A stretch of 64,000 bases of DNA from Chiloscyllium plagiosum (Eukaryota), in contig NC_057746.1 of NCBI RefSeq assembly GCF_004010195.1, positions 17,231,327 through 17,295,326 of the forward strand, read 5' to 3'. Shown piece after piece: positions 11,550-61,071 of the stretch (its first letter is position 1; the number at the start of each line of letters is the position of its first letter). The notes beneath the pieces were generated by a model. It did not search any database and was not told the origin of the DNA. It saw only the letters and a program-made list of their open reading frames with translations. The translations under genes and the position numbers were made by a program.

Positions 11550-12445
11550 TCATCTACAATTGAGAGTGAAGGGATATTTTATGGCACGTAGCAACTCCTG
11601 TCTGAACTTACTTTGGGTCACTGCATAAATGGCTGTGTTTGTGCAGCAGCTGAGTAGCTGAAGCATAACTCCTGTTTTTTCATAAATTTCATAAGGGCTA
11701 AGTAGAGATGAGAGAATAAAGACACCTGCAATTCGATAATGTAGGAAATATGTGACTGTCGTTATCCAGAGCAAGATAAAGCTGCCAGATATTGCAAAAA
11801 GTAAGATAATGGACCTTCTGCGATTCTTCATCTCAGGGTCTTTGTCTTTTTCATCATTACTGCTGTGGACTCGGAGGTTCTTTCGGGCTTGACTGGCTAC
11901 TAAAATGTGCCTGACAGTGAGGATGTTCAAAGATAAAATCAAGATGAATGGAAGAATTGGTGTTAACAGCTGTTCAATCCAAGAAAATGCCATCGCTGCA
12001 GATTGAAAATAAATCACTGGTGATACAAAACAACCACGTGGTATACTATTCACTCGCTCATAAGGAATGTACAAGAAAGCCCAGGGAATGTTTTTTAAAC
12101 AGAAGACCAAGGTCAACACTATGATCATCATCGCAGCAGTTTTCACTGTACAATATTTTGATTTCAGCTCCTGACAACAAATGGCTACAAAACGATCAAA
12201 AGTAAAAGCAACTGTGAACCAGACAGAGATATCTATGGCAGTCGGAGAAAGAAAAAGAATAAATTTACAAACAGAAGTGTACAGCAGCACCGAGTCCCTC
12301 CAATAAATTGCAGCAATCTGATTTAATGTTACGTTGAAGATAATCACTATTAAATCTGCTGTCGCCATTGCCACCAGGTAAACCGTGATGCACTTTGATA
12401 GACCACATTTCCCACGACATAAGATCACAATCGCCATCAAGTTCA
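11550..12445 (-). CDS. GPR139-like rhodopsin-family (class A) GPCR, coding exon 2 (end of TM1 to TM7); spliced protein 321 aa
   Basis: Seven hydrophobic segments across both exons. Motifs ILCRGKCGLSKC, YLVAMATADL (TM2), SVCKF plus FTFDRFVAICC (TM3), ECL2 Cys, DPEMKNRRRSIILLF (ICL3/TM6) and LLSCCTNTAIY (TM7). Acceptor 'ttttcaatttctcacAG' at 12447-12446 is phase 1 and joins exon 1 in frame as ...GVP-V-NLMAIV. Stop TGA at 11552-11550. Confidence 0.92.
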
Positions 12446-12709
12446 CTGTGAGAAATTGAAAAGTTAACAGAAACATATCAGGCTGTAGCCAACAATAATT
12501 ACTCAACTGCCATGAGATTGACATTTCGTTTTCTCTTTGCAGTCTGCTTTTCTGTGCTGAAATTTCTCATCAATCTCATGGATTAAATGTGGCATGATTC
12601 AAAGGGTAGTGCTGAAATCAATCCCACTATGTCTGGAATCTTTACAGCTGCTAGACATTTTAAAGAGTCCACAAAGATTCCTCAAGATACCTGATCTTTG
12701 ACAGAAAGC

Positions 12710-13050
12710 ACGGAGAGTTGGCTCAGTGTTTAGCGCTTTTGCCTCACAGTGCCTAGTAAACCTAGTTCGATTCCACCCTGGGCTGGCAGTCTGTGTGGAG
12801 TTTGCACAATCTCTCCATATCTGCTTGGGTTTCCTTCCATTTCTGACAACGTGAAGTTTAGTTAGATTAGCTATGTTAAATTGCGCACAGTGTTCATGAA
12901 TATATCGATTATGTGGATTAACCATGGGAAATGTGGGGTTACAGGGATAACTCAGGTGTAGTGCATCATAATGGGATGCCCTTCGGAGGCTTGTTATGGA
13001 GTCAATGGACCGAATGGCCTGCTTCCACATTATAAGTATTCTACAATTCT
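12710..13050 (+). mobile_element. Decayed HE1-type SINE inside the GPCR intron
   Basis: Sequences 'ttggctcagtgtttagc', 'gttcgattcc', 'ctgtgtggagtttgcac' and the tail 'gaatggcctgcttccaca'. Confidence 0.75.
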
Positions 13051-13457
13051 ATGAATGCATAGGACCCAGCTACAAGCAATAAGTAGTTATAAAACATTAA
13101 CATATGATACTATTAACTAAAGAACTATTTCCATCATAAACTCGTTTTACACATATACATGCACACCAGAAATACAATCTGTAACGAAGGATCATTGGGA
13201 AAGCAGTTCAGTGGCTTCTGTTCACAAGAATTGTTGTGTTAATGCTGACAGTTCTTCTGCCGCTCCGAAAGAGACAGAGAGAGGGAGAGAGAAAGAGAGA
13301 GAGAGAGAGAGTTCTTGGTCGATGAAGACTTCATGGCTTCTCTATATCTTGTACCCATCTCCAGATTGTTCAGCAATGTGAGAATACATCTTATGGCGGT
13401 TTGCAGACAGAAGGCGTTTGTCGTTGGTAACTGGTCAGTTATCCACAACCTAACCAG

Positions 13458-13760
13458 GTTAGATTAGATGCCCTACCGTATGAAACAGGCCCTTCAGAGC
13501 AACAAGTGCACACCGACCCTCTGAAGAATAACCCACCCCTGAATAATGCACCTCACACTATGGGCAATTTAGCATGATCAATTCACTTGCCATACACATC
13601 TTTGGATTGTGGGAGGAAACCAGAGCACCCGGAGGAAACCCACGCAGACACAGCGCGAATGTGCAAACTCCACACAGACAGTCACCCGAGACAGGAATCG
13701 AAACTGGGTCCCTGGCGCTTTGAGGCAGCAGTGCTAACCACCGAGCCACTGTGTCGCCCA
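13458..13760 (-). mobile_element. HE1-type SINE inside the GPCR intron
   Basis: Reverse complement matches the SINE at 1966-2325 (head 'gggcgacacagtggctcggtggttagcact', tail 'aatctaatct'). Confidence 0.9.
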
Positions 13761-14759
13761 TAATCTACCAGTTTTACGAACCAAAGCTCTATTTGCATAC
13801 AAACTATTGGTTCCAGTTCTTCTGCAAATACTGCAATAATCTAAGATTGAACATGTATTGTTTATACTGAAATTGTTTACTCTCAAAACATGGAATAATC
13901 CTTTGTTATTCGGACCCTAAGATGATGGAATAGAAGCAGGCCATTTGGTGAATCAAGTTGCCTATGCCATTCAATGAAGTTGCAATTAATCAGACAATAT
14001 TCAGCTTCATATTCCTCTATTATCCTCATAGCCCTTAATATACATTGTCTTTAGGAACAGAAGAATGACATTGGACATCTGAACCTATGTTTGTTTCAGC
14101 CTTTTGGTTACTTCTCTCGTCAATACCGATCCAGTGGGAGAGGTACAATTGGATAACACTGAGCATAAATCTTAGCACGAAAGAGACCACAATTAGAGAA
14201 GGAGAGATTATTGTTAGGTTCATGCGAGCCTGTTTAAAAGGAAGCAGCACAAAACGAACACAATGAATAAATACATAAATTAAGAGGGAAGGCAACAACA
14301 AAGATAAGAGGGAGTTGGAGAGAAGAGGTGAAATTCTTCGGATAAAACAGTACATTGGAGAAGAACCCAAGATTACATATCTCAGAAGAACAGTCAAACC
14401 AATAGTAACATTATATAAGAGTAGAAAATAAGGCGATACCAAGTATTACAGTGAGTAAGAATATACACAATGAACATCAGTCAAATTGAGCAAGAGAGGC
14501 GATATAGCTATGAAAAAAAGAGCATAAAAGAGTAGTAATGACTAAAGATAAGGAAATGCAAACTTGTTGACAATATGAAGGACAATATGGAGAGAAGAAA
14601 GCATGAACAAAAAAGGAGAATGTTAGAGAGAACACGAATGTTCTGGAAATGAAGAGAACTTCAACAGACGAGATGTCCAAGTTAGAGGAATCCTGACCCG
14701 CTTCGAAATGATAATAACACCTTTGTTGGAAATAGTTTTCAGGAGAATATTGTACTTAC

Positions 14760-14829
14760 CAGGCACTCCAATTACGGCGAGTATAGGATAGTATATGGAT
14801 TGAGTTGGAGACATTTCTGTCCACAACAT
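14760..14829 (-). CDS. Coding exon 1 of the GPR139-like GPCR (MLWTEMSPTQSIYYPILAVIGVP + G)
   Basis: ATG at 14829; 70 nt ending in the canonical donor G|GTAAGT (14759). 70+896 = 966 nt = 322 codons including the stop. Confidence 0.9.
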
Positions 14830-14905
14830 TTTCAGTGTGATGTGAAACCTTTTGTATTATAGGTGATTGATGTAACTATGAGAAGACAGAGAAAATATTG
14901 AAGCC

Positions 14906-14913
14906 TTTTTATA
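14906..14913 (-). promoter_or_regulatory. Candidate TATA box of the intact GPCR gene
   Basis: TATAAAAA on the minus strand about 77 bp upstream of the exon 1 ATG. Confidence 0.5.
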
Positions 14914-15419
14914 GCGAAGTAAATCCCAAATGTTGCGGTTAAGCTGCATTCCTAAGTGAATTTTATCTAGCCAAAACAGGCAAGAGTCTCATTGCACCTG
15001 GGTTTTCCCTGTAGAAGGCATTAAGCAAAGACACACTTACATCAACACCTTTTGGCAGAAGAGCATGTTGTTGGAAAATAAAACGTGATGCATTTTGATT
15101 TCAAGGCAAGGAAACAATGAAGGCTATTACTAAATTGAAATAATCAATCTCCACTGTTCTGTTTTAGATATGGAATATTTTCTTCCAAATTCTTTACCTC
15201 TACTGGATTACACTCGTGCCCCACAAACCCATGCCTTGTTACTGTTGCAACCCCGCAACCCCAACTCTCCAGTTTTGACAAGTGGTAGCGGTCATTAGCT
15301 CCCATTCTGCCTCCTGATTTTTCCATGGACTGTCTGCGTTTTCGTTCTATCTTTCACTCCAGAATGGTGTTTCTCTCACTTGGCAGGAAAGGGGAATTGA
15401 TGGACTTATTCAGTAGGTC

Positions 15420-16070
15420 ATACGAATACAAGGTATAGGAGCAGGACAAGGCTTCCATCTAAATCTGCTATTCAACAAGGTCATAGCTGCTCTTTTGTCT
15501 CAAGTCGACACTCCTTACTAGCCACGTATCCCTTCATTCATTCTGTGATTAACAAAAGCTGTTTTCTGAGTCTAAAATGTATTTTAGACTCAGTACGAAA
15601 GAGCACCAAACACTTTTCTGGTAGAGAATTTCGAAATTTTACAACCATCAGCGTAAAGAAATTCTATTCTGTTCTATTCTTATAATCATCTTCCGATAAA
15701 GGACCCAGGTTTCTTTAAAAGTTTAAATTTTTTGAAGCTTACGAAATGTTCTTTTTTTAAAAAAATTAGACTAAAGTAAATTATCTCGCAATATCACCTC
15801 ACATTGCAGACTGTCATGATTTTGTTGCACACACATTTAAACCTGCATAGACCTTCTTACAACTTGTTGTTTCTTACTCACATCTAATGCTCTCACATAG
15901 TTTTATATCACCAACACATTTGGTGACTTTAATATCATCTAAGACATGAACGTGTGTTATTATTGGCTGAGGCTTCAGTATTGATCCTCACTGCATTCCA
16001 CTGGAAGTAGCTGAACAAGTTGAAAGGGCATCAGTTATGACTATTCTCTGCTTTTGCTCCGTTAAACGTC
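15420..16070 (-). mobile_element. Highly decayed CR1 3'/RT fragment
   Basis: CR1-like tail 'ataggagcagga..aggc' and 'cagtattgatcctcactgcattccactgg' (reverse of a VPQGS-like region). Confidence 0.5.
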
Positions 16071-16549
16071 CCTACAGACTGAGAGGGGTAAGCAGCAAGT
16101 CAGTATCACTGTAAAGAATAAGGGGAGGTGCTTTCGGCACGTTAGAATTACTGTGAAGCACACTGGGAGGAGGGTGCAGCAATTCAGCTTCATTAGCCGT
16201 GTGCAGCAAGTCGGTATCAGTGTGAATCACCCAGCAGAAGTGTGCAGCAAGTCAGCATCACTACATCAGGGTGAAGCAGACTGGCAGAGTGGACATGTGT
16301 AAGAAGTGTAACAGTGGCACATGGCAACAGTTGGAGACAGTGCATCCTTCTAAGTCTTCTCACCTGTTTATGATGTCACATTAAAACAAAGCGATTGATG
16401 TGTAATTATTCCATGTATTTTTGATAGACCATGTGGTTTACATTCGGTGCTGTTAGTACATTTCAAGGTACATTTTAATTATGAAATACCATTATTTCAT
16501 AGTGAAGCACATGCCTCAGTTTAATTAGATAAAATGTGGGCAGTGGACA

Positions 16550-17490
16550 GAGGCAATAGTATATGACTATGAGTGAGACATGTATTAGAATCCATAATCT
16601 AGTACTGGAAAAAACACAACAACTGCCCCTATGACATAGGTATGAAGTTATTGCTCCCTATATGTAAGCACACACAGGCTGCAGGGAGAATGAGCAAACT
16701 GACCAAAATGCCATCCTATGCAAAAGTGGGTGGAGAAAAGAGAAATTTAATATTAATAGGGGATAGTATCATTAAGACAATAATTACTGCTCACTATTGG
16801 AAAGACAAGAAAAATTGCAAAAGGTATGTTGCCTTTCTGATGCCAAAATTCTGAGCCCGAGAAGATTTTGAAATGGGCATGGAAAGTTCCATTTTTTTTA
16901 ACTTTGTATATACCAATAACAAAGGTCAAACTCAAATAGAGCTTCTGCTGAAGGAACTTTTGCAGCAAGAGGCTGCATTAAAAAAACACACTAATGAGAT
17001 AATAAGCACACAGTTAGCTCTACTGTATCATAGACACCAAACCGATTCGCACCTGAGCTAAATGAAAAGTGACAGATGGCAAATGAACTTAGAGATATAA
17101 ATGCGTTGCTCAATAACTGGTGTCAGAGCAATGAGTTACGATGAATGGGACACTGGTCCCAGTCCTAGGAATTGAAATGGGTGCATTGGAATAGTCTTCA
17201 TCTGAACCGAGCGTGGTCAGTATAGTTGCCAAGTATATAATTAGGAATGTAGTTTGGACACGCGTTTAAGACTGACGCGAGAACGAATTTCCTCTCTCAG
17301 AATATTTTGAGGAATGAGATCTCTGTTCCACAATCAATGTGTTTATTTAAGGCTGAGGTACCTAGATTCTGTATCAGGCGACAAATAACGGTTTAGGGAA
17401 ATGGTAAGAAAGTGAATCTGAAGAGTGCCAGATCAGTCATTATCCTATTGAATGCAAGAGCCAAATGATTGATCCTGTTTTTATTTCTTT
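16550..17490 (+). mobile_element. Decayed CR1: ORF1 esterase-like part fused to a 3' end
   Basis: LILIGDSIIK (SGNH/GDSL-like ORF1 motif) and 'ggacactgg...cttcatctgaaccg' (GLHLN-like), followed by a CR1 3' tail around 17280-17490. Confidence 0.6.
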
Positions 17491-17759
17491 AGAATAAACT
17501 ACCTCTGCATCACAAAACGGCTGAACTCTCGAAGTGAGATGAGAGTGACTGCACTTGACATCGTCAGAATTACCTTCTGTTCTGCATCAAGGAGACCTCA
17601 CAACGCTGAAATCAACGAGAATCAGATGGAAGGCTCTATACTGCTTTGTACCCAAACAAAGGAAGATGTCTTTGAATTTTGCAGATCAATGATCTCAGCT
17701 CGACGACTAATGTGCCGGTGTTCCTCATGGTCGTCTCGTCTGTTCAAGCATTTTTCAGC

Positions 17760-18490
17760 TACTTAGCCAATAGCCTCCCTCTAACATAATGCCAGAATTG
17801 GAGTATCGTGATGATTGTACAATTTCCAGCACCATTCACAACTTTTCAGACACAAAAGCATTCCATGTTAAATTGCACCAAGCTCTGGACAATAATTAAG
17901 CTTAGCCTGACAACTGGAAAATAACATTGACGCTACACAAATTCTAAGCAGCAACCAATTCCAATACGAGATCATCTAACTATACACTCTTCATATTCCA
18001 TTACATTACCATCGACTGACTCCTCCTCACCAACGCACTGTGAGTTGCCTTCGACAAGAAACTCAGATGGACTTCTTATATAAACGTAAGAGTTATAGAA
18101 CATAACAGAATTCGGAATGCTGCAGCAAGTACTCAACTCCTGACTCCCCATAGTCTGTCCATTATGTCCGAAGCACAAGTCAGGAAGGTGATGGAATACC
18201 CTCCGCGTTTCTGGATGTATGTGGCTCCAATAGCAGTGAAGAAGCTCGGCAGCATCCTGGTGAATTGTTTGGAACCACACCCATTCCTTTCACCAGTGAC
18301 ACTCAAAAGCAGCAGTGTGTACTATCTACAAGATACACTGCAGAAATTCACCAACTACCCTACACAGCAATTTACAAACACAAGACAACTTCCATCTAGA
18401 AGTACAAGAGCAGCAGATGCATGGGAGCACAACAAACTCCAATTTCTCCTCCAAGTCACTCACCATCTTCACTTGGAAATGTATTGCCAT
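17760..18490 (+). mobile_element. Non-LTR retrotransposon RT C-terminal fragment (clade not assigned); related piece at about 26215-26730
   Basis: AQVRKVMEYPP.FWMYVAP..VKKL; the homologous region at 26254 reads GRSEMQYSLFIWMDVAPKTVKKLD. Confidence 0.65.
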
Positions 18491-21985: not shown

Positions 21986-21989
21986 AGAC

Positions 21990-25029: not shown

Positions 25030-26125
25030 CATGGGGGTCCAGCTTGTAATAGTTAGATGGATTAGGAACTGGCTGGGCAAGCAGGAGACAGAGAGCAGCA
25101 TAGCAGAAGGTAGTTTATCAAAATGGAAACCAGCGGTGATCGACAGGGATCGGTTTTTGGACCACTGTTGTTTGTATATACATAAATGATTTGGAAGGAG
25201 GTACAGGTGTTTTGATTAGCAAGTTGGCAGAAGCCACTAAGATTCATGGAGTAGCAGTTAGTGAAGGGGACTGTCAAATAATAAAGCACAATATGGATAA
25301 TTTGGAGAGTTGGACAGAAAAATGGCAGATGGAGTTTATTCCGGGCAAATGTGAGGCGATGCATTTTGGAACATCCAATTCAAGACCAAATTATACGATA
25401 AATAAAAAAGCCCTGGAGAATATTAATACACAGAGATCTGCGTGTTCAGGTCCATTGTACCCTGAAGTTGACATTAAGGTCGGTAGATTTTTCAGGAAGA
25501 CATATGGCATGCTTTCCTACATCGGACAGGTATCGAGTACAAGATTGGCAGGTCATGTGAGAGTTGGATAGGAATTGTTTGCGGCCCCAGTTGGAATGCT
25601 GTGTGTAATTCCGGTTGCAGCATTACCAAAGGATGTGGATGCTTTGGAGACGGTGCAAATGAAGTTCACCAGGATGTTGCCTGCAATGGAGGGCGCTAGC
25701 CTTGAAGAGAGGTTAATTAGATTAGGATTGTTTTCATTATAAATATGCAGGTTGAGGGGCGATTGAGGTCTAAAAGATCATGAGAGGTAAAAATAGGGTG
25801 GATATCATGACACTTTTTCTTTTCCAGAGTGGGGACTCAATTACAAGGGATGATGAGTTCAACGTGAGAGGGAAAACGTTTAACAGAGATATGTGTGGAA
25901 AGTTCTTTATGCAGATTGTGATGGGTGCTGAGAGCGCATTGACAGCAGAGGTGTTAGAGGAGGGCACGATAGTGTCATTGAAGATATATCTAGCCAGATA
26001 TATGAATGGGCATGGAGCAGAGGGACCCAGGTCCTTAGAAAGTAAGCGACAAGTTTAGATAGAGGATCTGGGATTGTTACCGGTTTGGAGGGCCGAAGGG
26101 ACTTGTTCATATGCTGAATCCACAC
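25030..26125 (+). mobile_element. CR1 LINE 3' half, decayed
   Basis: WIRNWL, QGSVFGPLLF, KWQMEF..GKCEAMHFG, and the tail 'gagggccgaagggacttgtt'. Confidence 0.88.
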
Positions 26126-26730: not shown

Positions 26731-28789
26731 CAGTAATTTAGAAAAAAGCTTTTCTTTTCTTCTTTTAATATGTTTTTATGGTTTGTTCATTAAAATATTA
26801 ATTTCTTCTTACGGTACAATATCTGTCTCGGAGAATTCTTGCTGTCATATGGAGAGATGCAAATTGGCTGTGGATTAACTTTGATCATACCGCAGAATCA
26901 GTGAGGAGCCTCAGATAGATCATCCATTGAGTAATTCTAGCTGTCCGGGCTTGTAAATGCTTCACACTTGTCTTAGAAATTGATTTTCTGAACTCTGAAA
27001 GAAATAGTGAATTGGTATGTTCGTGGAGCATTTATCAAGGCAGGTTATTTAATTATGTACTAGTATTGCAAGACTGATTGTAGCAGGACTGCATAACTCA
27101 TCATACCTGCAGCTCAGTTACTGTCATATTGCAACACATAGTGTTGCACAATGTATCACTTGTCACTTCATCTTCATGACAGGAATAAAGTTACTAATAT
27201 TAAAATAATTGAAATAATTATGTTTTCTTTCCTTAGAATGCGAATTTTCTTTACAAATTTATTCTTTAAATGTGCCACATTCTGCATTATACGAAGGTAA
27301 TGTTTTGTATTTGCCCTCTTGTCTCAATATATAGCAATGAAATGAAAACGAAACATTCTACAGTCAAGTTACGACTGCAGTTGAAGCAGATGCATCTTTC
27401 CAGGTGCATTCACATTAGTTTGGATGTTAATCAGCTAATTAATTATAAACCATGGTTCTTTTAAAAACTTCAGTTATTTACAAGCAACACTTCGTTCTCT
27501 TAGATGTAAACTTCTGGGTCCTAACTTACATTTTGTTGCAGTTACTTAACTTCTTAAATGCACTGATCATGTAGCACACTCTTGCGACCACCAGAGTAAG
27601 GAGAAGAATTTAGGAAAAAAATCAAAGTTCAGACGGTAGACAAACTGAATAGGTAATTACATGATTGTTCTGTCCTACAGTTAATTGGTTTCCTGGTCAA
27701 TCTCGTCTTCTCGTTTTCAGTAAGAGGTTCACATTGGCAGTCCGTTCTTAAAGTGGCAGCTCAGCTGTGCCCAGAGAGGTTACAAAAATTATTATATTTC
27801 CACTAATCTTTCGTCCCTTCAACCGTTCAACTGTTTGGGATACATCTCCTTTCGGACTGCTTATTTATTTCTTTTCGAACTTGCCACACTCGCTAGTGTG
27901 CTTCATTGTTCACATTTTTCAAAGATGGTCTTCGAAATCTATCAACGTATTGTCCTTTTAGAATCGAGAAAACTGCAGCAATGTATGTTGAGAGTTGAGA
28001 ACAAGTTTTCCCAGTCCATGTCAGGGTATATAATAGTCCTTAATTATCCCTACTCTTTGCTAAGTTCTACACTTTTTGTCTTTTGTCTTTATTTAAAATG
28101 ACAAATGCAAAGAGACTACTTTGATTCTGATCGCTAATGCTTTTCGTTCTTCTTTATTGAATTTCTTAATTTTCTTAATTTCTTAATAATTTCCCTGATC
28201 ACTATATTGTTTTATGTTCTCATTACATTCTGCGACATGAGCTGCCTTTGTTGATAAACTTTCATTTGTAATTAAGCATAACATTTATGTCCATTGAATA
28301 TATAATGTTCGATAGTCTTGTTATATCCAGAAAATATTTGTCTGACGGCTCGCTATCTTCCTTTAATGCCTTCGACGAGACTGAGCCCGTTTTCTGCACA
28401 AGTGGCTGGTCTTAGTCCAGTAAGACCACATTTCATATTGCGTTCATAAAATTTGGATTCCTCCAGTTCATTACTCGTCAATTTCCAAACAGGTACGAAA
28501 TTTAACTAAGCAATGGGCTCTGCGTCCAAAAAGAAAATAAAAAAAGAAGATATAGCCTATAAACTGGTGCACATTAGTGATAGCCAATTTCTAATTAATA
28601 TGTCTAGAATTTCCCCATCCTTAGTTCTGTCTCCTTTCGTTGATAAAAGTTCTGCTGTTTCCAAATTAAGAACTTTTCTCTCTCTCTACTTGGCACAGAA
28701 ACAAAAGTTGCCCATAGTAATATATATATATGGTTAACATGCATTACACTGAAAGATTATTATTTTTACATATCTCTGAAACGTTGATT

Positions 28790-29559: not shown

Positions 29560-31858
29560 TCCTTGATATGTATGTACCGTGAGGGAACCTTGGTTGACGA
29601 GGGAGGTTGAATGTCTTGTAAGGAGAAAGAAGGAGGCTTACAATAAGGCTGAGGAAACAAAGTTCAGACAGAGCGTTGGAGGGATACAGGATAGCCAGGA
29701 GGGAGCAGAAGAAAGGGATTAGGAGAGTTAAGAGAGGGCATGAAAACTCTTTGGCGGGTAGGAACAAGGATAACCCCAAAGCCTTCTTTGCGTATGTGAG
29801 AAACATGAGAATGACGAGAACGAGGGTACATCCGATCAAGGACAGTAGTGGGAGACTGTGTATTGAGTCGGAAGAGATGGGAGAGGTATTGAATGAGTAC
29901 TTTTCTTCAGTACTTACAAATGAGAGGGATCGTATTGTTGAAGAGGAGAGCATGAAACGGACTGGTAAGCTAGAGGAGATACTTGTTAAGAAGGAAGATG
30001 TGTTGGGCATTTTGAAAAACTTGAGGATAGACAAGTCCCCCGGTCCTAACGGGATATATCCTAGGATTATGTGGGAAGCAAGAGAGGAAATTGTAGAACC
30101 GTTGGCAATGATCTTTTCGTCTTCACTGTCAACGGGGGTGGTGCCAGGGGACTGGAGAGTGGCGAATGTTGTGCCCCTGTTCAAAAAAGGGAATAGGGAT
30201 AACCCTGGGAATTACAGGCAGTTAGTCTTACTTCGGTGGTAGGCAAAGTAATGGAAAGGGTACTGAGGGATAGGATTTATGAGTATCTGGAAAGACTGCT
30301 TGATTAGGGACAGCCAGTGCGGATTTGTGAGGGGTAGGTCTTGCCTTACAAGTCTTATTGAATTCTTTGAGGAGATGACCAAGCATGTGGATGAGGGTAG
30401 AGCAGTGGATGTAGTGTACATGGATTTTAGTAAGGCATTTGATAAGGTTCCTCACGGTAGGCTTATTTGGAAAGTCAGGATTCATGGGATAGTGGGAAAT
30501 TTGGCCAGTTGGATAGAGAACTGGCTAACCGGTCGAAGTCAAAGAGTGGTGTTAGATGGTAAATATTCAGCCTGGAGACCAGTTACAAGTGGAGTTCCGC
30601 AGGGATCAGTTCTGGGTCATCTGCTGTTTGTAATTTTTATTAATGACTTGGAAGAGGGAGTCGAAGGGTGGGTCATAAATTTGCAGACGATATGAAGATT
30701 GGTGGAGTTGTGGATAGTGAGGACGGCTGTTGTCGGCTGCAAAGGGACTTAGATATGATGCAGAGCTGGGCTGAGGAGTGGCAGATGGAGTTCAACCCTG
30801 TCAAGTGTGAGGTTGTCCATTTTGGAAAGACAAATAAGAATGCGGAATACAGGGTTAACGGTAGGGTTCTTAGTAAGGTAGAGGANNNNNNNNNNNNNNN
30901 NNNNNNNNNNNNNNNNNNNNNNNNNNNNNNNNNNNNNNNNNNNNNNNNNNNNNNNNNNNNNNNNNNNNNNNNNNNNNNNNNNNNNNNNNNNNNNNNNNNN
31001 NNNNNNNNNNNNNNNNNNNNNNNNNNNNNNNNNNNNNNNNNNNNNNNNNNNNNNNNNNNNNNNNNNNNNNNNNNNNNNNNNNNNNNNNNNNNNNNNNNNN
31101 NNNNNNNNNNNNNNNNNNNNNNNNNNNNNNNNNNNNNNNNNNNNNNNNNNNNNNNNNNNNNNNNNNNNNNNNNNNNNNNNNNNNNNNNNNNNNNNNNNNN
31201 NNNNNNNNNNNNNNNNNNNNNNNNNNNNNNNNNNNNNNNNNNNNNNNNNNNNNNNNNNNNNNNNNNNNNNNNNNNNNNNNNNNNNNNNNNNNNNNNNNNN
31301 NNNNNNNNNNNNNNNNNNNNNNNNNNNNNNNNNNNNNNNNNNNNNNNNNNNNNNNNNNNNNNNNNNNNNNNNNNNNNNNNNNNNNNNNNNNNNNNNNNNN
31401 NNNNNNNNNNNNNNNNNNNNNNNNNNNNNNNNNNNNNNNNNNNNNNNNNNNNNNNNNNNNNNNNNNNNNNNNNNNNNNNNNNNNNNNNNNNNNNNNNNNN
31501 NNNNNNNNNNNNNNNNNNNNNNNNNNNNNNNNNNNNNNNNNNNNNNNNNNNNNNNNNNNNNNNNNNNNNNNNNNNNNNNNNNNNNNNNNNNNNNNNNNNN
31601 NNNNNNNNNNNNNNNNNNNNNNNNNNNNNNNNNNNNNNNNNNNNNNNNNNNNNNNNNNNNNNNNNNNNNNNNNNNNNNNNNNNNNNNNNNNNNNNNNNNN
31701 NNNNNNNNNNNNNNNNNNNNNNCAGAGTCAGAATCATTGGTGACCTTTAAGCGGCAATTAAATAGGTACATGGATAGGTGCTTAAGCTAGGACAAATGTT
31801 CGGCACAACATCGTGGGCCGAAGGGCCTGTTCTGTGCTGTATTGTTCTATTTTCTATT
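29560..31858 (+). mobile_element. Relatively young CR1 LINE (5'-truncated, frameshifted, spans a gap)
   Basis: [61 protein letters not shown]; tail 'gggccgaagggcctgttctgtgctgtattgttctat'. Confidence 0.95.
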
Positions 31859-36489: not shown

Positions 36490-36567
36490 ATGGGACATTT
36501 GACAATTGCTCAACTGAAAAAAAAAGAAACATTTACTATCCTCTTTTTGCATTACTTGGTGCTCTAG
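36490..36567 (+). pseudogene. Exon 1 of a second GPR139-like paralog, frameshifted in an A-run
   Basis: ATG GGA CAT TTG ACA ATT GCT CAA CTG, then an A9 run, then in another frame ATT TAC TAT CCT CTT TTT GCA TTA CTT GGT GCT CTA G|GTAAGA (IYYPLFALLGAL, phase-1 donor). There is no in-frame ATG after the upstream TAA at 36462. Confidence 0.8.
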
Positions 36568-37544: not shown

Positions 37545-38290
37545 GAACTTGTGCTGCTAAGCCCTTATACAAACCAATGTGCAACAGTTTCCCCAGATTA
37601 AAAGAAAACTCACACAATACCCTTTCACACCACACATCACGACCTGGAAATTCAGGACAATCATGGGCAAACCCGCCAGTGACAAATTGAAATGTTACTC
37701 TGACATCTTTGCACAGGAACTCAAGCGCTATAATAATGATATTGCTGCCCTCAGAGAAACCCAGCAGCAAGGGAAAAGGCAGTTCAGAGATCAACGTGGT
37801 GGCTACATCCTTTTCTGGAAGAGCAAGGCCGGACGGAGGGTCACATCCATAGAGTTAGCTTCACCATCTAAAACGAACTGGTGTACCAAATCAAAGATCT
37901 CCCCTCCCACTCCTCCCACCCCCGAGAAAAAGCGAGCACCTCATGTCACTCCAACTCAGATGCAATATGTTACGTTATTCAATACATATGCACCAACGCT
38001 TGATGCAGCAGCAAGAAGAAATTCTACTCCAGCTTTGACCAACCTCTCACCGGTCCTTGCTGCAGACAAACTAATTAACTTCTGTGACTTCAATGCTAGA
38101 GTCCACAAAAATGCAGATCTCTGGGAGGATGTAATCAGGAAAAAGCGAGTAGGAAAGGAAGACCCAACCAGCAGTCTTCTTCTAACTAAATTCCACGCAC
38201 ACAACCATCTCAGCACTTAACCAGGAAACACCCAGACCGATTTGACAAGAATAATCAGGTGATCCAAGAACCGATAAATCAGAAGTTCAT
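37545..38290 (+). mobile_element. RTE-clade LINE APE endonuclease remnant
   Basis: ITTWKFRT...AQELKRYNNDIAALRET...GGYILFW...YAPTL...DKLINFCDFNARV. Confidence 0.8.
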
Positions 38291-39680: not shown

Positions 39681-39689
39681 TCTCCTGTA

Positions 39690-47458: not shown

Positions 47459-47890
47459 CCACTGTTTTCATGACTGCGGTTCTATCCCCATGAAATCTGT
47501 GGTCCCTCCCAATGCATCAGTTGATATCTTTTTATCTGCAGCAAGATCAAATCTTTTATTTCTGAAATTTGGCATGCTGCTGCGTGAAATTAATAATATT
47601 TATTTCTAAAATTTCGTTTTGAACTATACAACTGCCTGCAGTCTGAATTACATGGTAAGATTTATTATTGTTCACTGTTCAGTCTGGTTATTTTACACTT
47701 TTGAAAATTCGTTTCATTTGTTATCAGAAGCTGATAGTCAGATATTGCACGAAGAAGCCAAGTTTCCTCATCATTGTGTTAGCGTGAGGGTTGCTCATTT
47801 TAGTAAATGCTTCGATCTATTTCCTATTTCAGCCGGTGAAAATAACCATGACTGTGCTCTTTAAAGTTGATATTCCATACTACAAATGTT
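47459..47890 (+). pseudogene. Decayed exon 2 (TM1 to ECL2) of the GPR139-like pseudogene
   Basis: With frameshifts it reads MTAVLS/HEICGPSQCIS*YL, NLLFLKFGMLLREINNIYF*NFVLNYTTACSLN...HCSVWL, ICYQKLIVRYCTKK and DIPYYKC, collinear with the intact gene. The acceptor appears mutated (ttttgcAA at 47451-47458). Confidence 0.8.
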
Positions 47891-48215
47891 ATCAATGGAC
47901 TCCATTTACACTTTGCATTGCCACAGACAGGCTGTCAACGTCATCAAATACCCCTCCTACCACGGTAATGCTCTCCCACAATCCCTTCCAACCGGCAGAA
48001 AATGCAGAAGCTTGAACACACGCCTACAACGGGTTCAAGAAAAGATTTGTTCTGTTATTATTACACTGCTGATTGGACTCTCCGACTTCAAGTAATGTTG
48101 CACTTGCTAATGCTAAGCTTCGTATACACACCTCCTGCGCACTTGTTACCTAGTCCTGTCTAAGTAGACTATGATCTGTATATCATTGTCTTCTATGATC
48201 TGCCTATACAGTGTG
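47890..48215 (+). mobile_element. Rex1/Babar-like LINE 3' fragment truncating the pseudogene
   Basis: Sequence 'atggactccatttacact...ggttcaagaa' is collinear with the copy at 63745-63900. Confidence 0.7.
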
Positions 48216-48219
48216 GAAC

Positions 48220-50944: not shown

Positions 50945-53200
50945 CATGAGTCATAGGAGTGGAAGTAAGGCCATTCGGCCCATCGAGTCCACTCCGCCAT
51001 TCAATCATGGCTGATGGGCATTTCAACTCCACTTACCCGCATTCTCCCCGTAGCCCTTAATTCCTTGTGACATCAAGAATTTATCAATTTCTGCCTTGAA
51101 GGCATTTAGCGTCCCAGGCTCCATTGTACTCCACAGCAATGAATTGCACAGGCCCACCATTCTCTGGCTGAAGAAATATCTCTGCATTTCTGTTCTGAAT
51201 TTACTCCCTCTACTTCTAATGCTGTGTCCATGGGTCCTAGTCTCCTCACCTAACGGAAACAATTTCCTCACGTCCACCCTTTCCAAGCCATGTATTATCT
51301 TGTAAGTTTCTATTAGATCTCCCCTTAATCTTCTAAACTCCAATGAATACAATCCCAGGATCCTTAGCCGTTCCTCATATGTTAGACCTACCATTCCAGG
51401 GATCATCCATGTGAATCTCTGCTGGACACTCTCCAGTGCCAGTATATCCTTCCTGAGGGGTGGCGACCAAAACTGGACGTAGTACTCCAAATGGGGCCTA
51501 ACCAGAGCTTTATAAAGTCTCAGTAGCACAACGGTGCTTTTATATTCCAACCCTCTTGANNNNNNNNNNNNNNNNNNNNNNNNNNNNNNNNNNNNNNNNN
51601 NNNNNNNNNNNNNNNNNNNNNNNNNNNNNNNNNNNNNNNNNNNNNNNNNNNNNNNNNNNNNNNNNNNNNNNNNNNNNNNNNNNNNNNNNNNNNNNNNNNN
51701 NNNNNNNNNNNNNNNNNNNNNNNNNNNNNNNNNNNNNNNNNNNNNNNNNNNNNNNNNNNNNNNNNNNNNNNNNNNNNNNNNNNNNNNNNNNNNNNNNNNN
51801 NNNNNNNNNNNNNNNNNNNNNNNNNNNNNNNNNNNNNNNNNNNNNNNNNNNNNNNNNNNNNNNNNNNNNNNNNNNNNNNNNNNNNNNNNNNNNNNNNNNN
51901 NNNNNNNNNNNNNNNNNNNNNNNNNNNNNNNNNNNNNNNNNNNNNNNNNNNNNNNNNNNNNNNNNNNNNNNNNNNNNNNNNNNNNNNNNNNNNNNNNNNN
52001 NNNNNNNNNNNNNNNNNNNNNNNNNNNNNNNNNNNNNNNNNNNNNNNNNNNNNNNNNNNCTTCTTGTCTTTTCGACAAGTTGAAAACCCTTGCATGTTTA
52101 AATGCCAGTCCTGACCCCCCTGTAACCACGTTTCTGTGATGCCTACCATATCATAATCATTCACGATGATCAGTGCCATTAATTCATCTGCTTTGTTACG
52201 AATGTTACGAGCATTCAGGTAAATTGCCTTAATGCTAACTTTCTTATCATTAGGGATATTGGAAGTCATAAGATGTTATAAGTTATCCTTCCTTTTTGCT
52301 GCATTCCCAGTCTGTCTCAAGTTTAAATCTGCCTGCACATATGCTATCCTGCCGCTTTTCTTTCCATTTAACTCCATACTCCCTGTCGCTTTCACTTTCC
52401 CTTCCCCCAACTCTGAAGTTTAAAGTCCTACTGACCACCCTATTTATCCTCTTTGCTAGAACATTGGTAGCTGATCGGTTCAGGTGGAGACCATCCCAAC
52501 GGTACAGATCCCCTGGTTCCAAAACTGATGCCAATGCCCCATGAAGTGGAATCCCTCTTTCCCACACCAATCCCTTAGCCACGTGTTTACTTCCCTAATT
52601 TTCTTATCCCTATGCCAATTGGCACGTGGCTCGGGCAGTAATCCCGAGATTATGACCCTTGAGGATCTGTACTTCAAATTCCTTCCTAGTGCTCTATAAT
52701 CCCCAAACAGGTTCTCCACCCTAGCTTTGCCTATGTTGTTAGTCCCAACGTGGACCACGACAACTGGAACCTCCCCCTCCATCTCCAATATCCCTTCAAG
52801 CCGGTCGGAGATGTCCCGCACCCTGGCAACACAACATGCGAGACTCCCGATCCGGCTTGCAAAGGATACTATCTGTCCCCCTAATTATAGAATCCCCTAT
52901 AACAACTACTTGTCTTTTTTATCCCCCCTCTTGAATGGCCTTCTGCACCATGGTGCCGTGGTCAGCTGGCTCATCCTGTTCAGAGCTCCTTTCCTCATCC
53001 GTACAGGGAGCAAGAGTCTCATACCTGTTGGACAAGGTCAAGGGCTGAGGCTCCTGCACTCCTGAACTCAGGTTCCCCCTACCTGCCTCACTTACAGTCA
53101 CATTCTGATGTCTCTGATCCCTAACAGAATGTGAATTACTTAATCTCCCAGGTGTGACTGCCTCCTAAAACAAAGCGTCCAGGTAACTCTCCCCCTCCCG
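50945..53200 (-). mobile_element. Near full-span CR1: ORF1 (SGNH esterase-like), endonuclease N-terminus, gap, RT C-terminus and 3' tail
   Basis: LSNRYETL; VVVVHVGTNNIG...IISGLLP; DGLHLN; YLNARNIRNK...VGITETWL; LYKALVRPHLEYYVQFWSP...FFSQRMVGLCN. Confidence 0.92.
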
Positions 53201-54925: not shown

Positions 54926-55205
54926 GAATATAATTAAAAGAAGCTCAACATTAATAGTATTAGCAGATTAGTGCCTTTTATTTTAAATTGATGCCCTAAA
55001 TAGTTTCATTTACCAAGGTTAAGAGTAGAGAATATCTGCTTCCTCCTCCATAATGAAGGCATATAATCTGTTTCAAAACATCCGTTGTTCAGAGTTTTGG
55101 TGGAATGGGGTTATAAGAACATAGGAACAAGAGGAGGCCATTCAGTCCCCCGTGCCTTTTCTGCCATTCAATGAGATCTTGGCTGATCTGTGGCCTAACA
55201 ACTGG

Positions 55206-55558
55206 GCATTTAGCTATGCCCAGTTGTCATCCATTTTATTCGCAAGTTAGGAATGACATTTGGCAGTGAAGTTATGTTAGTATTAATGGAATTTACTTGT
55301 TCCACTCACTCGCATTGTTTCAATGAGTTCTCAGTAACATGCGCATAGCTGCTTCTCAGATGGAGTGCATTTTTGGCAGTTTTCAGGCTTTGCGGGGCCA
55401 ATAACCAGCACAGATTGCTACTCCGACCGATCTTGCCACATCACTAAATTAACTACTGTTTGTCCTGGCATCTTGTCATTCTAGCTGTTGTCCTGCCATA
55501 TGAAAAGCTGTTCTTTATTCAAGAATGGTAACCGTTTGCATGAACAATACCTTAGCAC
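55206..55558 (-). repeat. Left arm of a 353-bp near-perfect inverted repeat (right arm 56480-56833)
   Basis: Sequence 'gcatttagctatgcccagttgtcatcc...gaacaataccttagcac' is the reverse complement of 56480 'gtgctaaggcattgttc...ggcatagctaaatgc', with only scattered mismatches. Confidence 0.95.
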
Positions 55559-55559
55559 A

Positions 55560-57800
55560 TATTCCAGCCTTTGGCCTTTCTCTAGCAAAATTTGAACGAA
55601 TTGCCATCTCCTTAAATAATGGACCAGCATGACCAGTAAAGAAACGAGACATGAGGTAGACCATGACAGTCAATAATCGACATTAAGCAAATATTCACCA
55701 TATACTGGCACCTGCTCAGCCAGAAATTGTAATAGCTGTCATTAGAGACTGATGAATAACATATCTTTATTGACCTGGCTCATAAATTTTTATCTGATGT
55801 CCTGCATGAAAATTTGTAGCGTCAGTGCGCCTTCATGTGACATGGTAAACAATGTACATCTTGTGGATTGCTGCACGGTTATCTGCATAGCCCAACTTGT
55901 TTCCCTTCTTTAGTAAACTGGAATCTGGATAAATTTGCTCTCGCTTCCAAAAATACAAATGACCCATTAATTTAATGACATACTGTGCCGTAGCCCTTAT
56001 GAACAAAGACTAGAAGAAGGATTAACTTTGTTGACTTAACAATTACGTGATTGCAGCTGCGAAGTTATTACCAAGGAAATCCAGACGTCAAACCAGATTG
56101 TTCTCTTCATAGGAATACAATGAACTAAGGGAGAACATGTTGCTCTTGATGAAATGAAAAACAAAATCAGCGAGACACAAGACCTGACCAAGAAATAAAT
56201 GGCCGAATATTTGTGAGGCTGCCTGGTTGTTGCAAAGGCTCATAACTCATTTGAGCATCCTGCTGCAATTCACTTATGCTGTTACTTGCTCGAGAAAAAA
56301 GAACGATAGATGACTAATATCCCTTTAAATATAGGAAAATCTGGGAAGCAACATATCACTGTATACTACGTTGTTGCTTATATCTAGAACACATTTGAAG
56401 TAGCTATGCGTAATATTACAGTTGATAGTTTTACAAATATAATCTCTGCTCAGCTAATGATAAAAGAAGAATTCAAGCAGTGCTAAGGCATTGTTCGTGC
56501 AAACGGTTACCATTCTTCAATAAAGAACAGCTTTTCATATGGCAAGACAACAGCTAGAATGACAAGATGCCAGGACAAACAGTAGTTAATTTAGTGATGT
56601 GGCAAGATCGGTCGGAGTAGCAATCTGTACTGGTTATTGGCCCCGCAGAGCCTGAAAACTGCCAAAAAATGCACTCCATCTGAGAAGCAGCTATGTGCAT
56701 GTTACTGAGAACTCATTGAAACAATGCGAGTGAGTGGAACAAGTAAATTCCATTAATACTAACATAACTTCATTGCCAAATGGCATTCCTAACTTGCGAA
56801 TAAAATGGATGACAACTGGGCATAGCTAAATGCAACCAAAACAAGGTGTGTTCAATTAACTGATGGCTCTGCTTGTACCATAACCATAAACATCACTGGA
56901 AAGCTATATCATTTCACTTGAATAAATAGACATCAGGGATGTGTAGTTGGTTTCAGTCAATTGGCTGCGCTTACAGATATAGTTCTTGCCCTTCACAACA
57001 ATGGAGTATGTCTTCACTGACCCCTGGGCTGTTTACAATGATGAAACGGTAGTGCAACAATTGGAGTTTACAATGGTAGCCTTTATTGAAGCAGCAATTA
57101 TGGGAGATAATCTGTGAAGAAGCATATTATTGAATGTTGCTTATATCTAGAAGACATTGGAAATAGCTATGCATAATATTACAGTTGATAGCTTTACAAA
57201 GAGAATCTCTGCTCAGCTAATGACAAAAGAAGAATTCAAGCCATCAACCCTGGACATTTAAGTACCTGAGGCAGCAGACAGCAGAATGAGGCATCCCACT
57301 GCAACTTGCATCACTCGTGAACTAGTGGAGCAATGCAATACTTGCAAAAAGATGAAGAAATTCCCTTTAAAAACGAATCGATTATTATCCATTTGGAGAT
57401 GCAGAGAAACAGCCCAGCTGCTGCAATTGGAATATATCAGACTGTTCCCTTTGTAACAATGTTTTTGATACAGTTTGATTATGATGAATGCAACCTGGGT
57501 GTCGAAATCATATACAGCTGTGTGGAAACAAACGAAGACAGTGCAATATATGTATAAACGTTATGGTGTAGGAGCCATTAGAAATATAAACTAAATATGG
57601 ATCACATTCTGCAGGGCAAGCAACGAACACGTGCTTGAGATAGAATGGATATTTCTCATTGCATATTGTTCTGAGGTAGCAGTGTTAGTGGAACGTATGA
57701 ATGGATCTATGAAGCAACATATGAAACTATTGACACCTATGCACATGCATAAATGGCAGTTGCATGTCTTACCCCAAATTTAATACGAACTGTGCAATCA
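55560..57800 (+). mobile_element. Class III (ERV-L/ERV-S-like) endogenous retrovirus pol remnant
   Basis: RT: *PVKKRD..MTVNNR, IDLAH, GKQCT..GLLHGYLHSPT, TH*FNDIL. Connection domain: GYW...TPSEKQLCACY*ELIET. RNase H: TDGSA, HWKA, YVFTDPWAVYN. Integrase: EWIFLIAYCSEVAVLVERMNGSMKQ. Confidence 0.8.
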
Positions 57801-58994
57801 ACCGCAGCCTGGCAGTACCTGCATGAATAAATTTATACTTAATATCTGTGAATAATTATATAATGACGCCGAGTGGGTGATAGAGCTATGTCTCTGTAAT
57901 TGTGGCAGGGTATGATTCCGTCTCCAAACCAGTCATAATTCTCAGCAGTTGTAAGTAGGATGATTGGGTACTCCCACAGGGCAAAATATCCCATTGCTTC
58001 TAGATGCAGATGAAAATGTAACTCTCAATATAAGCGGTTATGGATATAAATGATTATGTTATCGTGTATCAGGTATTAAACCAGCAACATAATTGTTTTT
58101 CTGCACAAAATTGACAATATGGTGACGGCTCCGCTGCCTGTGCTTCCTCTTGCTCTGTGTGATACGGGATCTACTGCTACTTGTGTACTACTGCTCCAGA
58201 AGAGGATTTGGCGGATGGATTCACAATGCAATAAAACGAATTCAAGATAGTTGTAACTGTCCGCCACATGTTGCATGCAACGTATATATGCAACGACAAT
58301 ATATGATCTAGTAACTTACACTAGTTACTGTCTCAAGAGGACACCCAAGTCACCCCACATTGCAGAATACTTTTACACCTCTTGATTCACTCTACATTAA
58401 ATGACAGAAATATTGATAACTGGAATATGACTATTTTGAAGCAGCTTTCAGAACGAACACCAGTCCATAGCTAACAGCTACTATCTCAAACGTTTACAGC
58501 GATTACACATTGTGGGTCCCGTGGAACTGTTGGCTTTGTATCATAAAGCAATGTAGAACATGCAGTTGCCCTATGTTTAACGATTGTCTGATGCACGTAT
58601 TCAGGGCTTAAAACAAATATTGTGCTAAAAATAACAGTACGAATAACTAATTGAATAAATTACCCTTCTGTTGGTGATATGAGCATTTCTAAATTAAACC
58701 GAAAGAAGTATCCCATTCCTAGAACTATTCAGACATGGCAAATTTCTTCTGCTTCAAATTGCGAGTAGCTTTGTATTTAGAGTGGAATCGCAGTAACTAG
58801 ATGGGAAACAGTCGACCCGGTCTATTCAGAGGTTCATAAATCAGAGGTTGCTGCCTTGAATTCAATGCAGTTCAAATCTGCTTTTGAATGACAATGACAT
58901 ATACAATTTTTCAAACTTATCTTTGTTTTTGCTGTCAAGTTGTATCGATACAAACGCCGCCTTGAAACATTTTTGAAAATATATGATATCTGAA

Positions 58995-60463
58995 CGAGGG
59001 TAGGTCCGATCAAGGACAGTAGTGGGAGATTGTTTATTGAGTCGGAAGAGATATGTGAGGTCTTGAATGAGTACTTTTCTTCAGTATTTACAAACGAGAG
59101 GGACCGTATTGTTGAAGAGGAGAGTGTGAAATGGACTGGTAAGCTAGAGAGATACTTGTTAGGAAGGAAGATGTGTTGGACACTTTGAATAACTTGAGGA
59201 TAGACAAGTCCCCAGGGCCTGACGGGATATATCCTAGGAATATGTGGGAAGCAAGAGAGGAAATTGGAGAACCGTTGGCAATGATCTTTTCGTCTTCACT
59301 GTCAACAGGGTTGGTACCAGGGGACTGGAGAGTGGCGAATGTTGTGCCCCGTTCAAAAAAGGGAATTGGGATAACCCCAGGAATTACAGGCTAGTTAGTC
59401 TTACTTCGGTGGTAGGCAAAGTAATGGAAAGGGATAGGATTTATGAGTATCTGGAAAGACACTGCTTGATTAGGGACAGCCAGCGCAGATTTGTGAAGGG
59501 TAGGTCTTACCTTACAAGTGTGATTGAATTCTTTGAGGAGATGACCAAGCATGTGGATGAGGGTAGAGCAGTGGATGTAGTACGCATGGATTTTATTAGG
59601 GCATTTAATAAGGTTCCCCATGGTAGGCTTATGCGGAAAGTCAGGAGGCATGGGATAGTGGGAAATATGGCCAGTTGGATAGAAAACTGGCTAACCGGTG
59701 GAAGTCAGAGAGTGGTGGTAGATGGTAAATATTCAGCCTGGAGCCCAGTTACAAGTGGAGTTCCGCAGGGATCAGTNNNNNNNNNNNNNNNNNNNNNNNN
59801 NNNNNNNNNNNNNNNNNNNNNNNNNNNNNNNNNNNNNNNNNNNNNNNNNNNNNNNNNNNNNNNNNNNNNNNNNNNNNNNNNNNNNNNNNNNNNNNNNNNN
59901 NNNNNNNNNNNNNNNNNNNNNNNNNNNNNNNNNNNNNNNNNNNNNNNNNNNNNNNNNNNNNNNNNNNNNNNNNNNNNNNNNNNNNNNNNNNNNNNNNNNN
60001 NNNNNNNNNNNNNNNNNNNNNNNNNNNNNNNNNNNNNNNNNNNNNNNNNNNNNNNNNNNNNNNNNNNNNNNNNNNNNNNNNNNNNNNNNNNNNNNNNNNN
60101 NNNNNNNNNNNNNNNNNNNNNNNNNNNNNNNNNNNNNNNNNNNNNNNNNNNNNNNNNNNNNNNNNNNNNNNNNNNNNNNNNNNNNNNNNNNNNNNNNNNN
60201 NNNNNNNNNNNNNNNNNNNNNNNNNNNNNNNNNNNNNNNNNNNNNNNNNNNNNNNNNNNNNNNNNNNNNNNNNNNNNNNNNNNNNNNNNNNNNNNNNNNN
60301 NNNNNNNNNNNNNNNNNNNNNNNNNNNNNNNNNNNNNNNNNNNNNNNNNNNNNNNNNNNNNNNNNNNNNNNNNNNNNNNNNNNNNNNNNNNNNNNNNNNN
60401 NNNNNNNNGCACAACATCGTGGGCCGAAGGGCCTGTTCTGTGCTGTATTGTTCTATGTTCTAT
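58995..60463 (+). mobile_element. Young CR1 LINE, same subfamily as 29560-31858 (spans a gap)
   Basis: Almost base-for-base collinear with 29820-30612 and has the same 3' tail. Confidence 0.95.
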
Positions 60464-61001
60464 GAAAGAATGAAATGTGGGAGACAGCAACAGTTTATTG
60501 TTTTGATAATATTGCAAAAATAAAACATTATAAATTGGATATGAAATGTAAGATATTCCAAGCTACGGGTAGAAGGAGAATGTTCACTACAGGATACATT
60601 GTGAAAATATCTTGCTGAATAGGTTTTGGCAAGCTGCAGCAACATTAAACATCAAAATAAATGGCGAGTCATTGAGGTAATTAGCATTTTCTGGAAATAA
60701 CGAGAAAAAGTGCGATTAGGTCTTAGTTTTTCAAAAGGAATTAAGCGCTGACTTGGACTGGTTGGAGTTAAACACCCCCATCTATTTTGTAACAGTAATT
60801 TTCTATGGTACAAGGCTCTTTAGAGTTAAGAAATCGAATAGTATGTTTACACAACAGGAACAAATGTCACTTATTGCATAACCTCTTCAGCTCACATGGG
60901 AGATCTTAGACACGATACAAATGGTTGGATCATTTAGCTTCATTTAGTTCTGTATTGGATATATTATATTCAACACCATCATTAGCGCATTACTTGAAAA
61001 C

Positions 61002-61071
61002 ATGAATCCAACAACACTCGCACTGATTTCAGGTGTCTATTACCCTCTTCTCGCTGTGTTCGGTGTCTCTG
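61002..61071 (+). CDS. Coding exon 1 of a third GPR139-like paralog (MNPTTLALISGVYYPLLAVFGVS + G); exon 2 presumably beyond the window
   Basis: Same 70-nt length, YYP.LA..GV motif and phase-1 donor (G|GTAATT at 61072) as the exon 1 at 14829-14760; start context 'aaacATG'. Confidence 0.8.

What the first reader, a model, noticed from the sequence alone, without database searches (positions are those of the whole stretch)
11550..61071. Hidden cluster of at least three two-exon GPR139-like receptors: a birth-and-death GPCR family
Seen: three exon 1 copies (14829-14760 minus, 36490-36567 plus, 61002-61071 plus) share the (I/V)YYP.(L/F)A..G motif and a phase-1 GT donor; two are exactly 70 nt. One intact and one decayed exon 2 are present. 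The paralogs differ strongly in protein sequence. Known: mammalian GPR139 and GPR142 are single-copy sensors of aromatic L-amino acids. Inference: clustered, divergent paralogs with pseudogenes is how chemoreceptor repertoires evolve, so this may be an expanded shark amino-acid or chemosensory receptor family that is poorly characterised functionally.
Basis: partly seen in the sequence, partly recalled or inferred. Interest (0 to 1): 0.8.

Follow-up and report, generated by a model that had tools for sequence, protein, structure and literature searches.

The report
Huge overlooked shark receptor family
This stretch of a shark genome holds two intact and two broken copies of a cell-surface receptor gene from a family with at least 482 and likely over a thousand copies in this genome, a family I found described in no paper searched and which likely lets sharks and rays tell many different chemicals apart.

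Summary
The window has four loci of one two-exon class A GPCR family. Gene A (321 aa) and gene C (322 aa, exon 2 just beyond the window) are intact; B and D are pseudogenes. Eight capped searches found 482 distinct loci in the genome; systematic sampling suggests about 1,200-1,300 (wide limits). Sharks and rays carry many copies, the chimaera a handful, and amphibians and sturgeon one. The 'GPR139' label is a best-hit name. Human GPR139 scores 69 bits against the family profile, versus 127-215 bits for fish, amphibian and amphioxus orphans, and none of 101 paralogs keeps all four GPR139 agonist-site residues. Signalling residues are near-invariant, the pocket is diverse, and dN/dS is 0.23. This fits a ligand-diverse repertoire, not an arms race. 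Tissue and ligand are untested: gene A had no RNA reads, and paralogs had about 20 reads in one single-cell run of unknown tissue. A chemosensory role is the best guess (0.5). Ten paper searches found no description, and a shark genome paper speaks of GPCR paucity in cartilaginous fishes.

The parts
14760..14829 (-). Gene A exon 1 (70 nt: ATG, short N-terminus, first half of TM1), phase-1 GT donor
11550..12445 (-). Gene A exon 2 (rest of TM1 to TM7, helix 8, stop); spliced product 321 aa, intact; intron 2,314 bp
   Evidence: (7tm_1 E 7.5e-17)
36490..36567 (+). Gene B exon 1, frameshifted (78 nt; ATG out of frame with the motif)
47467..47903 (+). Decayed, truncated exon 2; pairing with the 36490 exon 1 is inferred from strand and order
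   Evidence: E 3.2e-20
61002..61071 (+). Gene C exon 1 (70 nt); exon 2 lies outside the window at G000:C37:17298541 onward (L031:3542); spliced product 322 aa, intact
3497..3950 (-). Gene D: pseudogene exon 2 (acceptor kept; stops, indels, cut off after about half its length); no exon 1 found
   Evidence: (E 8.7e-53)

Best explanation
The window is part of a tandem array of a very large shark-and-ray family of two-exon class A GPCRs that gains and loses genes by duplication and decay, and that likely serves as a repertoire for telling many chemicals apart. Shown: gene structure, intact and dead copies side by side, at least 482 loci, old subfamilies shared by sharks and rays, a single-copy sister gene in amphibians and sturgeon, purifying selection, near-invariant signalling residues and diverse pocket positions. 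Inferred: each subfamily binds its own small ligand or short peptide (perhaps with an aromatic group, as in the wider GPR139/MIP/FMRFamide receptor group) in the transmembrane pocket and activates a G protein through the DRF and TM7 motifs. Also inferred: the genes are expressed sparsely in sensory or barrier epithelia such as nose, gill, gut or skin. Confidence in the family and birth-and-death part is about 0.97; the number given is for the chemosensory function.
For: Size: 482 distinct loci in the union of 8 capped searches (counted). In one search, 121 of 132 matches have no stop inside. 100 evenly spaced 10-kb stretches held 19 loci in 17 stretches: 7 intact, 4 cut by an edge, 8 broken. 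This scales to about 1,340 loci (794-2,118) on the six sampled contigs; 4 of 10 intact or edge-cut sampled loci were in the union. Local array: 6 intact and 6 broken loci in the window plus part of the 200 kb of flanks fetched. Selection: dN/dS 0.23 over 21 disjoint paralog pairs, range 0.12-0.58. Across 101 paralogs D2.50, N5.58, N7.49 and Y7.53 are 101/101; DR 100/101; both disulfide Cys 100/101. Mean entropy is 2.2 bits at 27 pocket positions, 1.76 at 53 other outer-TM positions and 0.89 at 84 inner-TM positions (p 0.009, columns not independent). There are 96 different 19-residue pocket strings in 101 genes. N-termini are short (median 12 residues before the YY motif) with no glycosylation sequon in 49 of 49. 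Known shark chemoreceptor families are tiny: in catshark 2+6 OR, 3 ORA, 3 TAAR, 2 TARL and 32 V2R (PMC11979771 section 13).
Against: There is no tissue evidence. No read of 95% identity or more fell on gene A in two single-cell runs. About 20 paralog reads (80-95% identity) fell on the TM3 and TM7 motifs in one run of unknown tissue, and 6 of them continue into non-family sequence. The catshark brain-plus-olfactory top-50 list holds no GPCR (PMC11979771 passage), and V2Rs already give a working olfactory repertoire (PMC10116579 passages). Pocket positions were picked by recalled class A numbering, not from a ligand-bound structure. The 101 paralogs come from query-biased searches. Unplaced contigs (105 loci) may include haplotype duplicates.
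Confidence: 0.5

Rival explanations
1. An immune-cell sensor repertoire: leukocytes or barrier cells use the receptors to detect microbial or damage-derived peptides and metabolites, as FPRs and MRGPRs do in mammals (recalled).
For: Large clustered repertoire with diverse pockets. Paralog reads occur in a poly-A single-cell run. Shark OR genes themselves are expressed in spleen and other non-olfactory tissues.
Against: No sign of an arms race: pocket dN/dS among close paralogs is 0.20, no higher than the gene-wide 0.23. Subfamilies are old and shared by sharks and rays. The tissue of the run is unknown.
Confidence: 0.25
2. Mostly genomic drift: copies pile up on small, recombination-prone chromosomes, and only a minority do anything distinct.
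For: 8 of 19 sampled loci are broken. Loci concentrate on C37 and C44-C49 (10-35 Mb). Gene A had no reads.
Against: dN/dS is below 0.6 in 21 of 21 pairs; signalling residues are near-invariant across paralogs with median identity 49%; subfamilies have been kept since sharks and rays split.
Confidence: 0.13
3. Receptors for the shark's own peptides (hormones, neuropeptides or species-specific pheromones), keeping the ancestral role of the GPR139/MIP/FMRFamide group.
For: The wider group is activated by peptides with aromatic C-termini (PMC8557429 passages). Foldseek's top matches are peptide receptors, with near-tied scores.
Against: Hundreds of receptors would need a matching peptide family, and none was seen here. 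Bony vertebrates manage with one copy.
Confidence: 0.1
4. True GPR139/GPR142 co-orthologs that all sense L-Trp and L-Phe.
For: Human GPR139 is the best solved-structure match to the profile (E 3e-18); RefSeq uses the name; W6.48 is kept in 98 of 101 and F or Y at 3.33 in 53 of 101.
Against: GPR139 scores 69 bits against 108-215 for other orphans, including amphioxus ones. 0 of 101 paralogs have all four agonist-site residues; gene A has 1 of 4 and gene C 2 of 4.
Confidence: 0.02

Closest known systems
RefSeq models 'probable G-protein coupled receptor 139' of sharks and rays (e.g. Stegostoma P0002, 84% identical to gene A)
   Same: Same family: 2,518 clusters at E<=1e-10; the listed hits that carry a species name are all sharks or rays.
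   Different: Automatic best-hit names; some members are named capa, GPR15, vasopressin or galanin receptor-like. No family-level description found.
Single-copy amphibian and sturgeon 'probable GPR139' orphan (Pleurodeles XP_069092602.1; Xenopus, caecilian and Acipenser homologs)
   Same: Sister to the expanded family (IQ-TREE 100/99); best non-chondrichthyan profile score among those named (215 bits).
   Different: One cluster per species listed in 20 amphibian hits and one sturgeon hit; 30-37% identical to the shark copies; keeps P6.50, which only 6 of 101 shark paralogs have.
Tentative GPR210A/B orphans of coelacanth, gar and fishes (Rinne et al. 2019, PMC6504862; passages read)
   Same: Orphans next to GPR139/142. 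Likely the low-copy clades found here (shark C26:36.6 Mb with Latimeria and a teleost; C98156 and C27:2.29 Mb with anchovy), which share the TM1 phase-1 acceptor.
   Different: The low-copy clades are separate from the expansion. The word 'shark' does not occur in that paper's main text. I could not map its Ensembl ids to my proteins.
Human GPR139 (PDB 7vug, 9m42) and GPR142
   Same: Nearest relative with a solved structure; same wider receptor group.
   Different: About 20% identity; agonist site not conserved; Asp aligns where the family has the TM3 disulfide Cys.
Vertebrate chemoreceptor repertoires (OR, TAAR, V1R/ORA, V2R; T2R, FPR and MRGPR recalled)
   Same: Short compact genes, clusters, many pseudogenes, variable pocket with a conserved core.
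   Different: A different GPCR lineage; Pfam gives only 7tm_1 and a sub-threshold Srx hit; sensory expression not shown.

Membership tests
Class A (rhodopsin-like) GPCR | 7tm_1 domain above the curated cut-off | tested here: met
   62.1 bits against cut-off 30.5
Class A (rhodopsin-like) GPCR | Seven-helix fold with helix 8 and conserved microswitch residues | tested here: met
   Model of the exon 2 product: pLDDT 78.8, TM-score about 0.7 to many class A structures; N1.50, D2.50, DR, W6.48, N7.49, Y7.53 conserved; P6.50 and P7.50 mostly absent
GPR139 orthologs | GPR139 is the closest relative | tested here: not met
   69 bits against 108-215 for amphibian, coelacanth, teleost, amphioxus and two unnamed proteins. 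GPR139 itself could not be placed in the tree.
GPR139 orthologs | Agonist site F109, H187, W241, N271 (PMC5430874, abstract) | tested here: not met
   Of 101 paralogs, 48 match one site, 51 two, 2 three, 0 four (mapping)
GPR139 orthologs | Activation by L-Trp or L-Phe | not testable with these tools
   Needs a heterologous assay
GPR210A/B (Rinne 2019) | Orthology to the named coelacanth genes | tested here: inconclusive
   The expanded family is separate from the Latimeria and teleost clades; Ensembl ids not mapped
Birth-and-death multigene family | Many clustered paralogs with intact and pseudogene copies, recent and old duplications | tested here: met
Odorant receptors and other known chemoreceptor families | Match to their own Pfam models | tested here: not met
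   Only 7tm_1 and a weak Srx hit at E<=0.1
Chemosensory receptor repertoire (functional class) | Sparse expression in sensory cells | tested here: inconclusive
   No read of gene A; about 20 paralog reads in a run of unknown tissue

The most novel reading that the evidence does not exclude
Sharks and rays have a fifth olfactory or chemosensory receptor family, evolved independently from a GPR139-related orphan and more than ten times larger than their V2R repertoire, expressed sparsely in the olfactory epithelium. This would overturn the view that elasmobranchs smell with only a few dozen receptors.
Probability: 0.3. Interest if true: 0.95.

Novelty: new variant of a known kind. Interest (0 to 1): 0.8.

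Why it matters
A shark genome paper notes a relative paucity of GPCRs in cartilaginous fishes (PMC8455134 passage), and chemoreceptor surveys count only a few dozen genes despite large olfactory organs. A family of hundreds to over a thousand receptors under purifying selection, sitting behind one misleading automatic name, contradicts that picture whatever its tissue. It makes the question of how sharks smell so well with so few receptors directly testable with existing catshark tissue RNA-seq. It would also be an independent origin of a vertebrate receptor repertoire, with a single-copy frog gene as an experimental handle.

Tried and rejected
Exact copy count: not obtained. Genome searches score only about 110-130 candidates each, so the count is a union plus sampling. 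Chao2 gave 662, biased low by uneven capture. The 8,000-odd first-look candidates and the summed contig depths are not copy numbers and were not used. True shark GPR139 and GPR142 were not located, so they are missing from both trees; their exclusion rests on profile scores and site residues. FastTree on 143 rows left the deep branches unresolved (sister link to the amphibian clade 0.30); IQ-TREE on 51 rows gave 100/99, but monophyly of the expanded clade alone is only 85/67. Positive selection on the pocket was looked for and not found. A weak hit at 27446-27640 did not hold up with the DNA profile (E 3.4). No complex prediction was run, since no partner is claimed. Paper searches found no description of the expansion; one search was too loose to be informative. 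The library lacks most subscription papers, and the catshark paper's supplement could not be read; it may hold tissue expression for these genes. Rows dropped before the 101-paralog statistics: 6 partial ORFs and 3 low-copy outgroup genes, of 110.
Full report
What is in the window. Gene A is a two-exon gene on the minus strand: exon 1 at 14829-14760, a 2,314-bp GT-AG intron in phase 1 inside TM1, and exon 2 at 12445-11550. It gives an open 321-aa protein that matches Pfam 7tm_1; its exon 2 product folds as a class A GPCR. The exon 1 at 61002-61071 splices to an exon 2 just outside the window and gives an intact 322-aa gene C, 46% identical to A over exon 2. The exon 1 at 36490-36567 is frameshifted, and the nearest same-strand exon 2, at 47467-47903, is decayed; I pair them as pseudogene B by inference. 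A second decayed exon 2 (D) lies at 3950-3497. An exon 1 profile from 48 database proteins finds exactly the three stated exons and nothing in 20 shuffles. The window plus part of the fetched flanks holds 6 intact and 6 broken loci.

How big the family is. Gene A matched all 132 candidates the genome search scored, at 48-100% identity, 121 of them without a stop. Eight searches with different queries gave 482 distinct loci after three low-copy genes were set aside: 377 on 34 large contigs and 105 on small unplaced ones, which may include haplotype duplicates. 17 of 100 held a locus, 19 loci in all: 7 intact, 4 cut by an edge, 8 broken. Counting the 18 whose exon 2 start falls inside gives about 1,340 loci (95% limits 794-2,118) on six contigs, about 760 (364-1,398) of them intact or edge-cut. 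Only 4 of those 10 were in the union, which points to about 1,200 near-complete loci genome-wide (650-4,000). These are estimates; 482 is the counted floor.

Where it comes from. The protein collection holds 2,518 clusters at E<=1e-10, and the listed hits with a species name are all sharks or rays. The closest are from Stegostoma and Chiloscyllium, so the genome is likely that of a carpet or bamboo shark. A Callorhinchus query lists five chimaera clusters (itself and four at 72-75%), and the rest of the best 120 are elasmobranch or unnamed, so the large expansion looks elasmobranch. A profile search of 1.84 billion representatives ranks, after the chondrichthyan family, orphans from salamander (215 bits), coelacanth (200), a teleost (186), amphioxus (142, 127) and anchovy (127). 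Human GPR139 scores 69. The salamander gene has one cluster per species in 20 amphibian hits and one sturgeon hit. In IQ-TREE (51 rows, 299 columns) this clade joins the shark family at 100/99. Two other low-copy clades, each with shark members, lie outside; they likely correspond to the tentative GPR210A/B of Rinne et al.. Gene A's subfamily includes rays and a hexanchiform shark (100/100), gene C belongs to another subfamily, and gene A's four nearest paralogs lie within 0.5 Mb of it. Old radiation and recent tandem copying therefore both occur. True GPR139 and GPR142 are not in the trees.

How it likely works. Across 101 paralogs (median identity 49%) the activation and G-protein side is near-invariant, and the TM3-ECL2 disulfide is kept in 100 of 101. 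P6.50, present in the amphibian gene, is kept in only 6 of 101. Pocket positions, numbered by recalled class A convention, are more variable than other outer-TM positions (2.2 against 1.76 bits; inner TM 0.89), and 96 of 101 pocket strings differ. dN/dS over 21 disjoint close pairs is 0.23, and 0.20 in the pocket: functional genes whose pockets diverged between old subfamilies, with no sign of rapid recent change. The four residues needed for Trp/Phe activation of GPR139 (PMC5430874 abstract) are never all present. I infer a repertoire of receptors tuned to different small ligands or short peptides; the wider group prefers aromatic ligands (PMC8557429 passages).

What is not shown. No RNA run indexed gene A. 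In 13 million reads of one single-cell poly-A run, none matched gene A at 95% or more. About 19 paralog reads fell on the TM3 motif and 2 on TM7, and 6 of them run on into non-family sequence, so some may come from broken copies or unspliced RNA. The tissue is unknown. A chemosensory role (0.5) therefore stands against an immune-sensor role (0.25), drift (0.13), endogenous peptides (0.1) and GPR139-like amino-acid sensing (0.02).

What is known. Ten searches found no paper on this expansion. Term look-ups in the whale shark, catshark and zebra shark genome papers found no mention of it in the main text; the whale shark paper speaks of GPCR paucity in cartilaginous fishes. I read passages of PMC8455134, PMC10620051, PMC6504862, PMC8557429, PMC10116579 and PMC12294341, passages and section 13 of PMC11979771, and the abstract of PMC5430874; the others only as search listings. 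Subscription papers and unread supplements could hold a description. An earlier AI note on another piece of this genome reached the same reading; it is not independent evidence.

Verdict. New variant of a known kind; interest 0.8.

Noticed in passing
G000:C26:36600769-36601743 (L121); G000:C98156:21293-22210 (L122, L145); G000:C27:2294602-2295507 (L146): Three low-copy shark orphans of the GPR139-related group, one 64% identical to the coelacanth gene; they share the TM1 phase-1 acceptor with the expanded family.
   Followed up: partly
L033:8028 (+) and L045:9631 (+), flanks of the window: Further exon 1 copies with donors but no intact same-strand exon 2 in the stretches fetched; possibly orphaned exons.
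   Followed up: no
G000:C43:10275477 and 10276856; G000:C99322:7949 and 9291: Pairs of exon 2 copies only about 1.4 kb apart; some database models (P0016, P0021) fuse duplicated halves, possibly tandem exon 2 duplications or annotation artefacts.
   Followed up: no
window 11602-11655 and 12142-12249: In run X1, contigs of very high summed depth pile on the TM7 and TM3 motifs, with flanks like a subfamily my queries barely sampled (example L197); a hint of a much-amplified subfamily, not a copy number.
   Followed up: partly
window 2742-3215, 25140-25568, 29622-30692, 37561-38217, 52483-52884, about 44000: Broken retroelement fragments (LINE-like reverse transcriptase, endonuclease and ORF1 pieces; a possible integrase piece); labels recalled from motifs, not from a database call. 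One lies just past the truncated end of pseudogene D.
   Followed up: no
G000:C44 (15.3 Mb), C46 (12.8 Mb), C37:0-17.6 Mb: Family loci spread along most of these contigs (82, 53 and 70 found), so some small shark chromosomes may be largely receptor arrays.
   Followed up: partly
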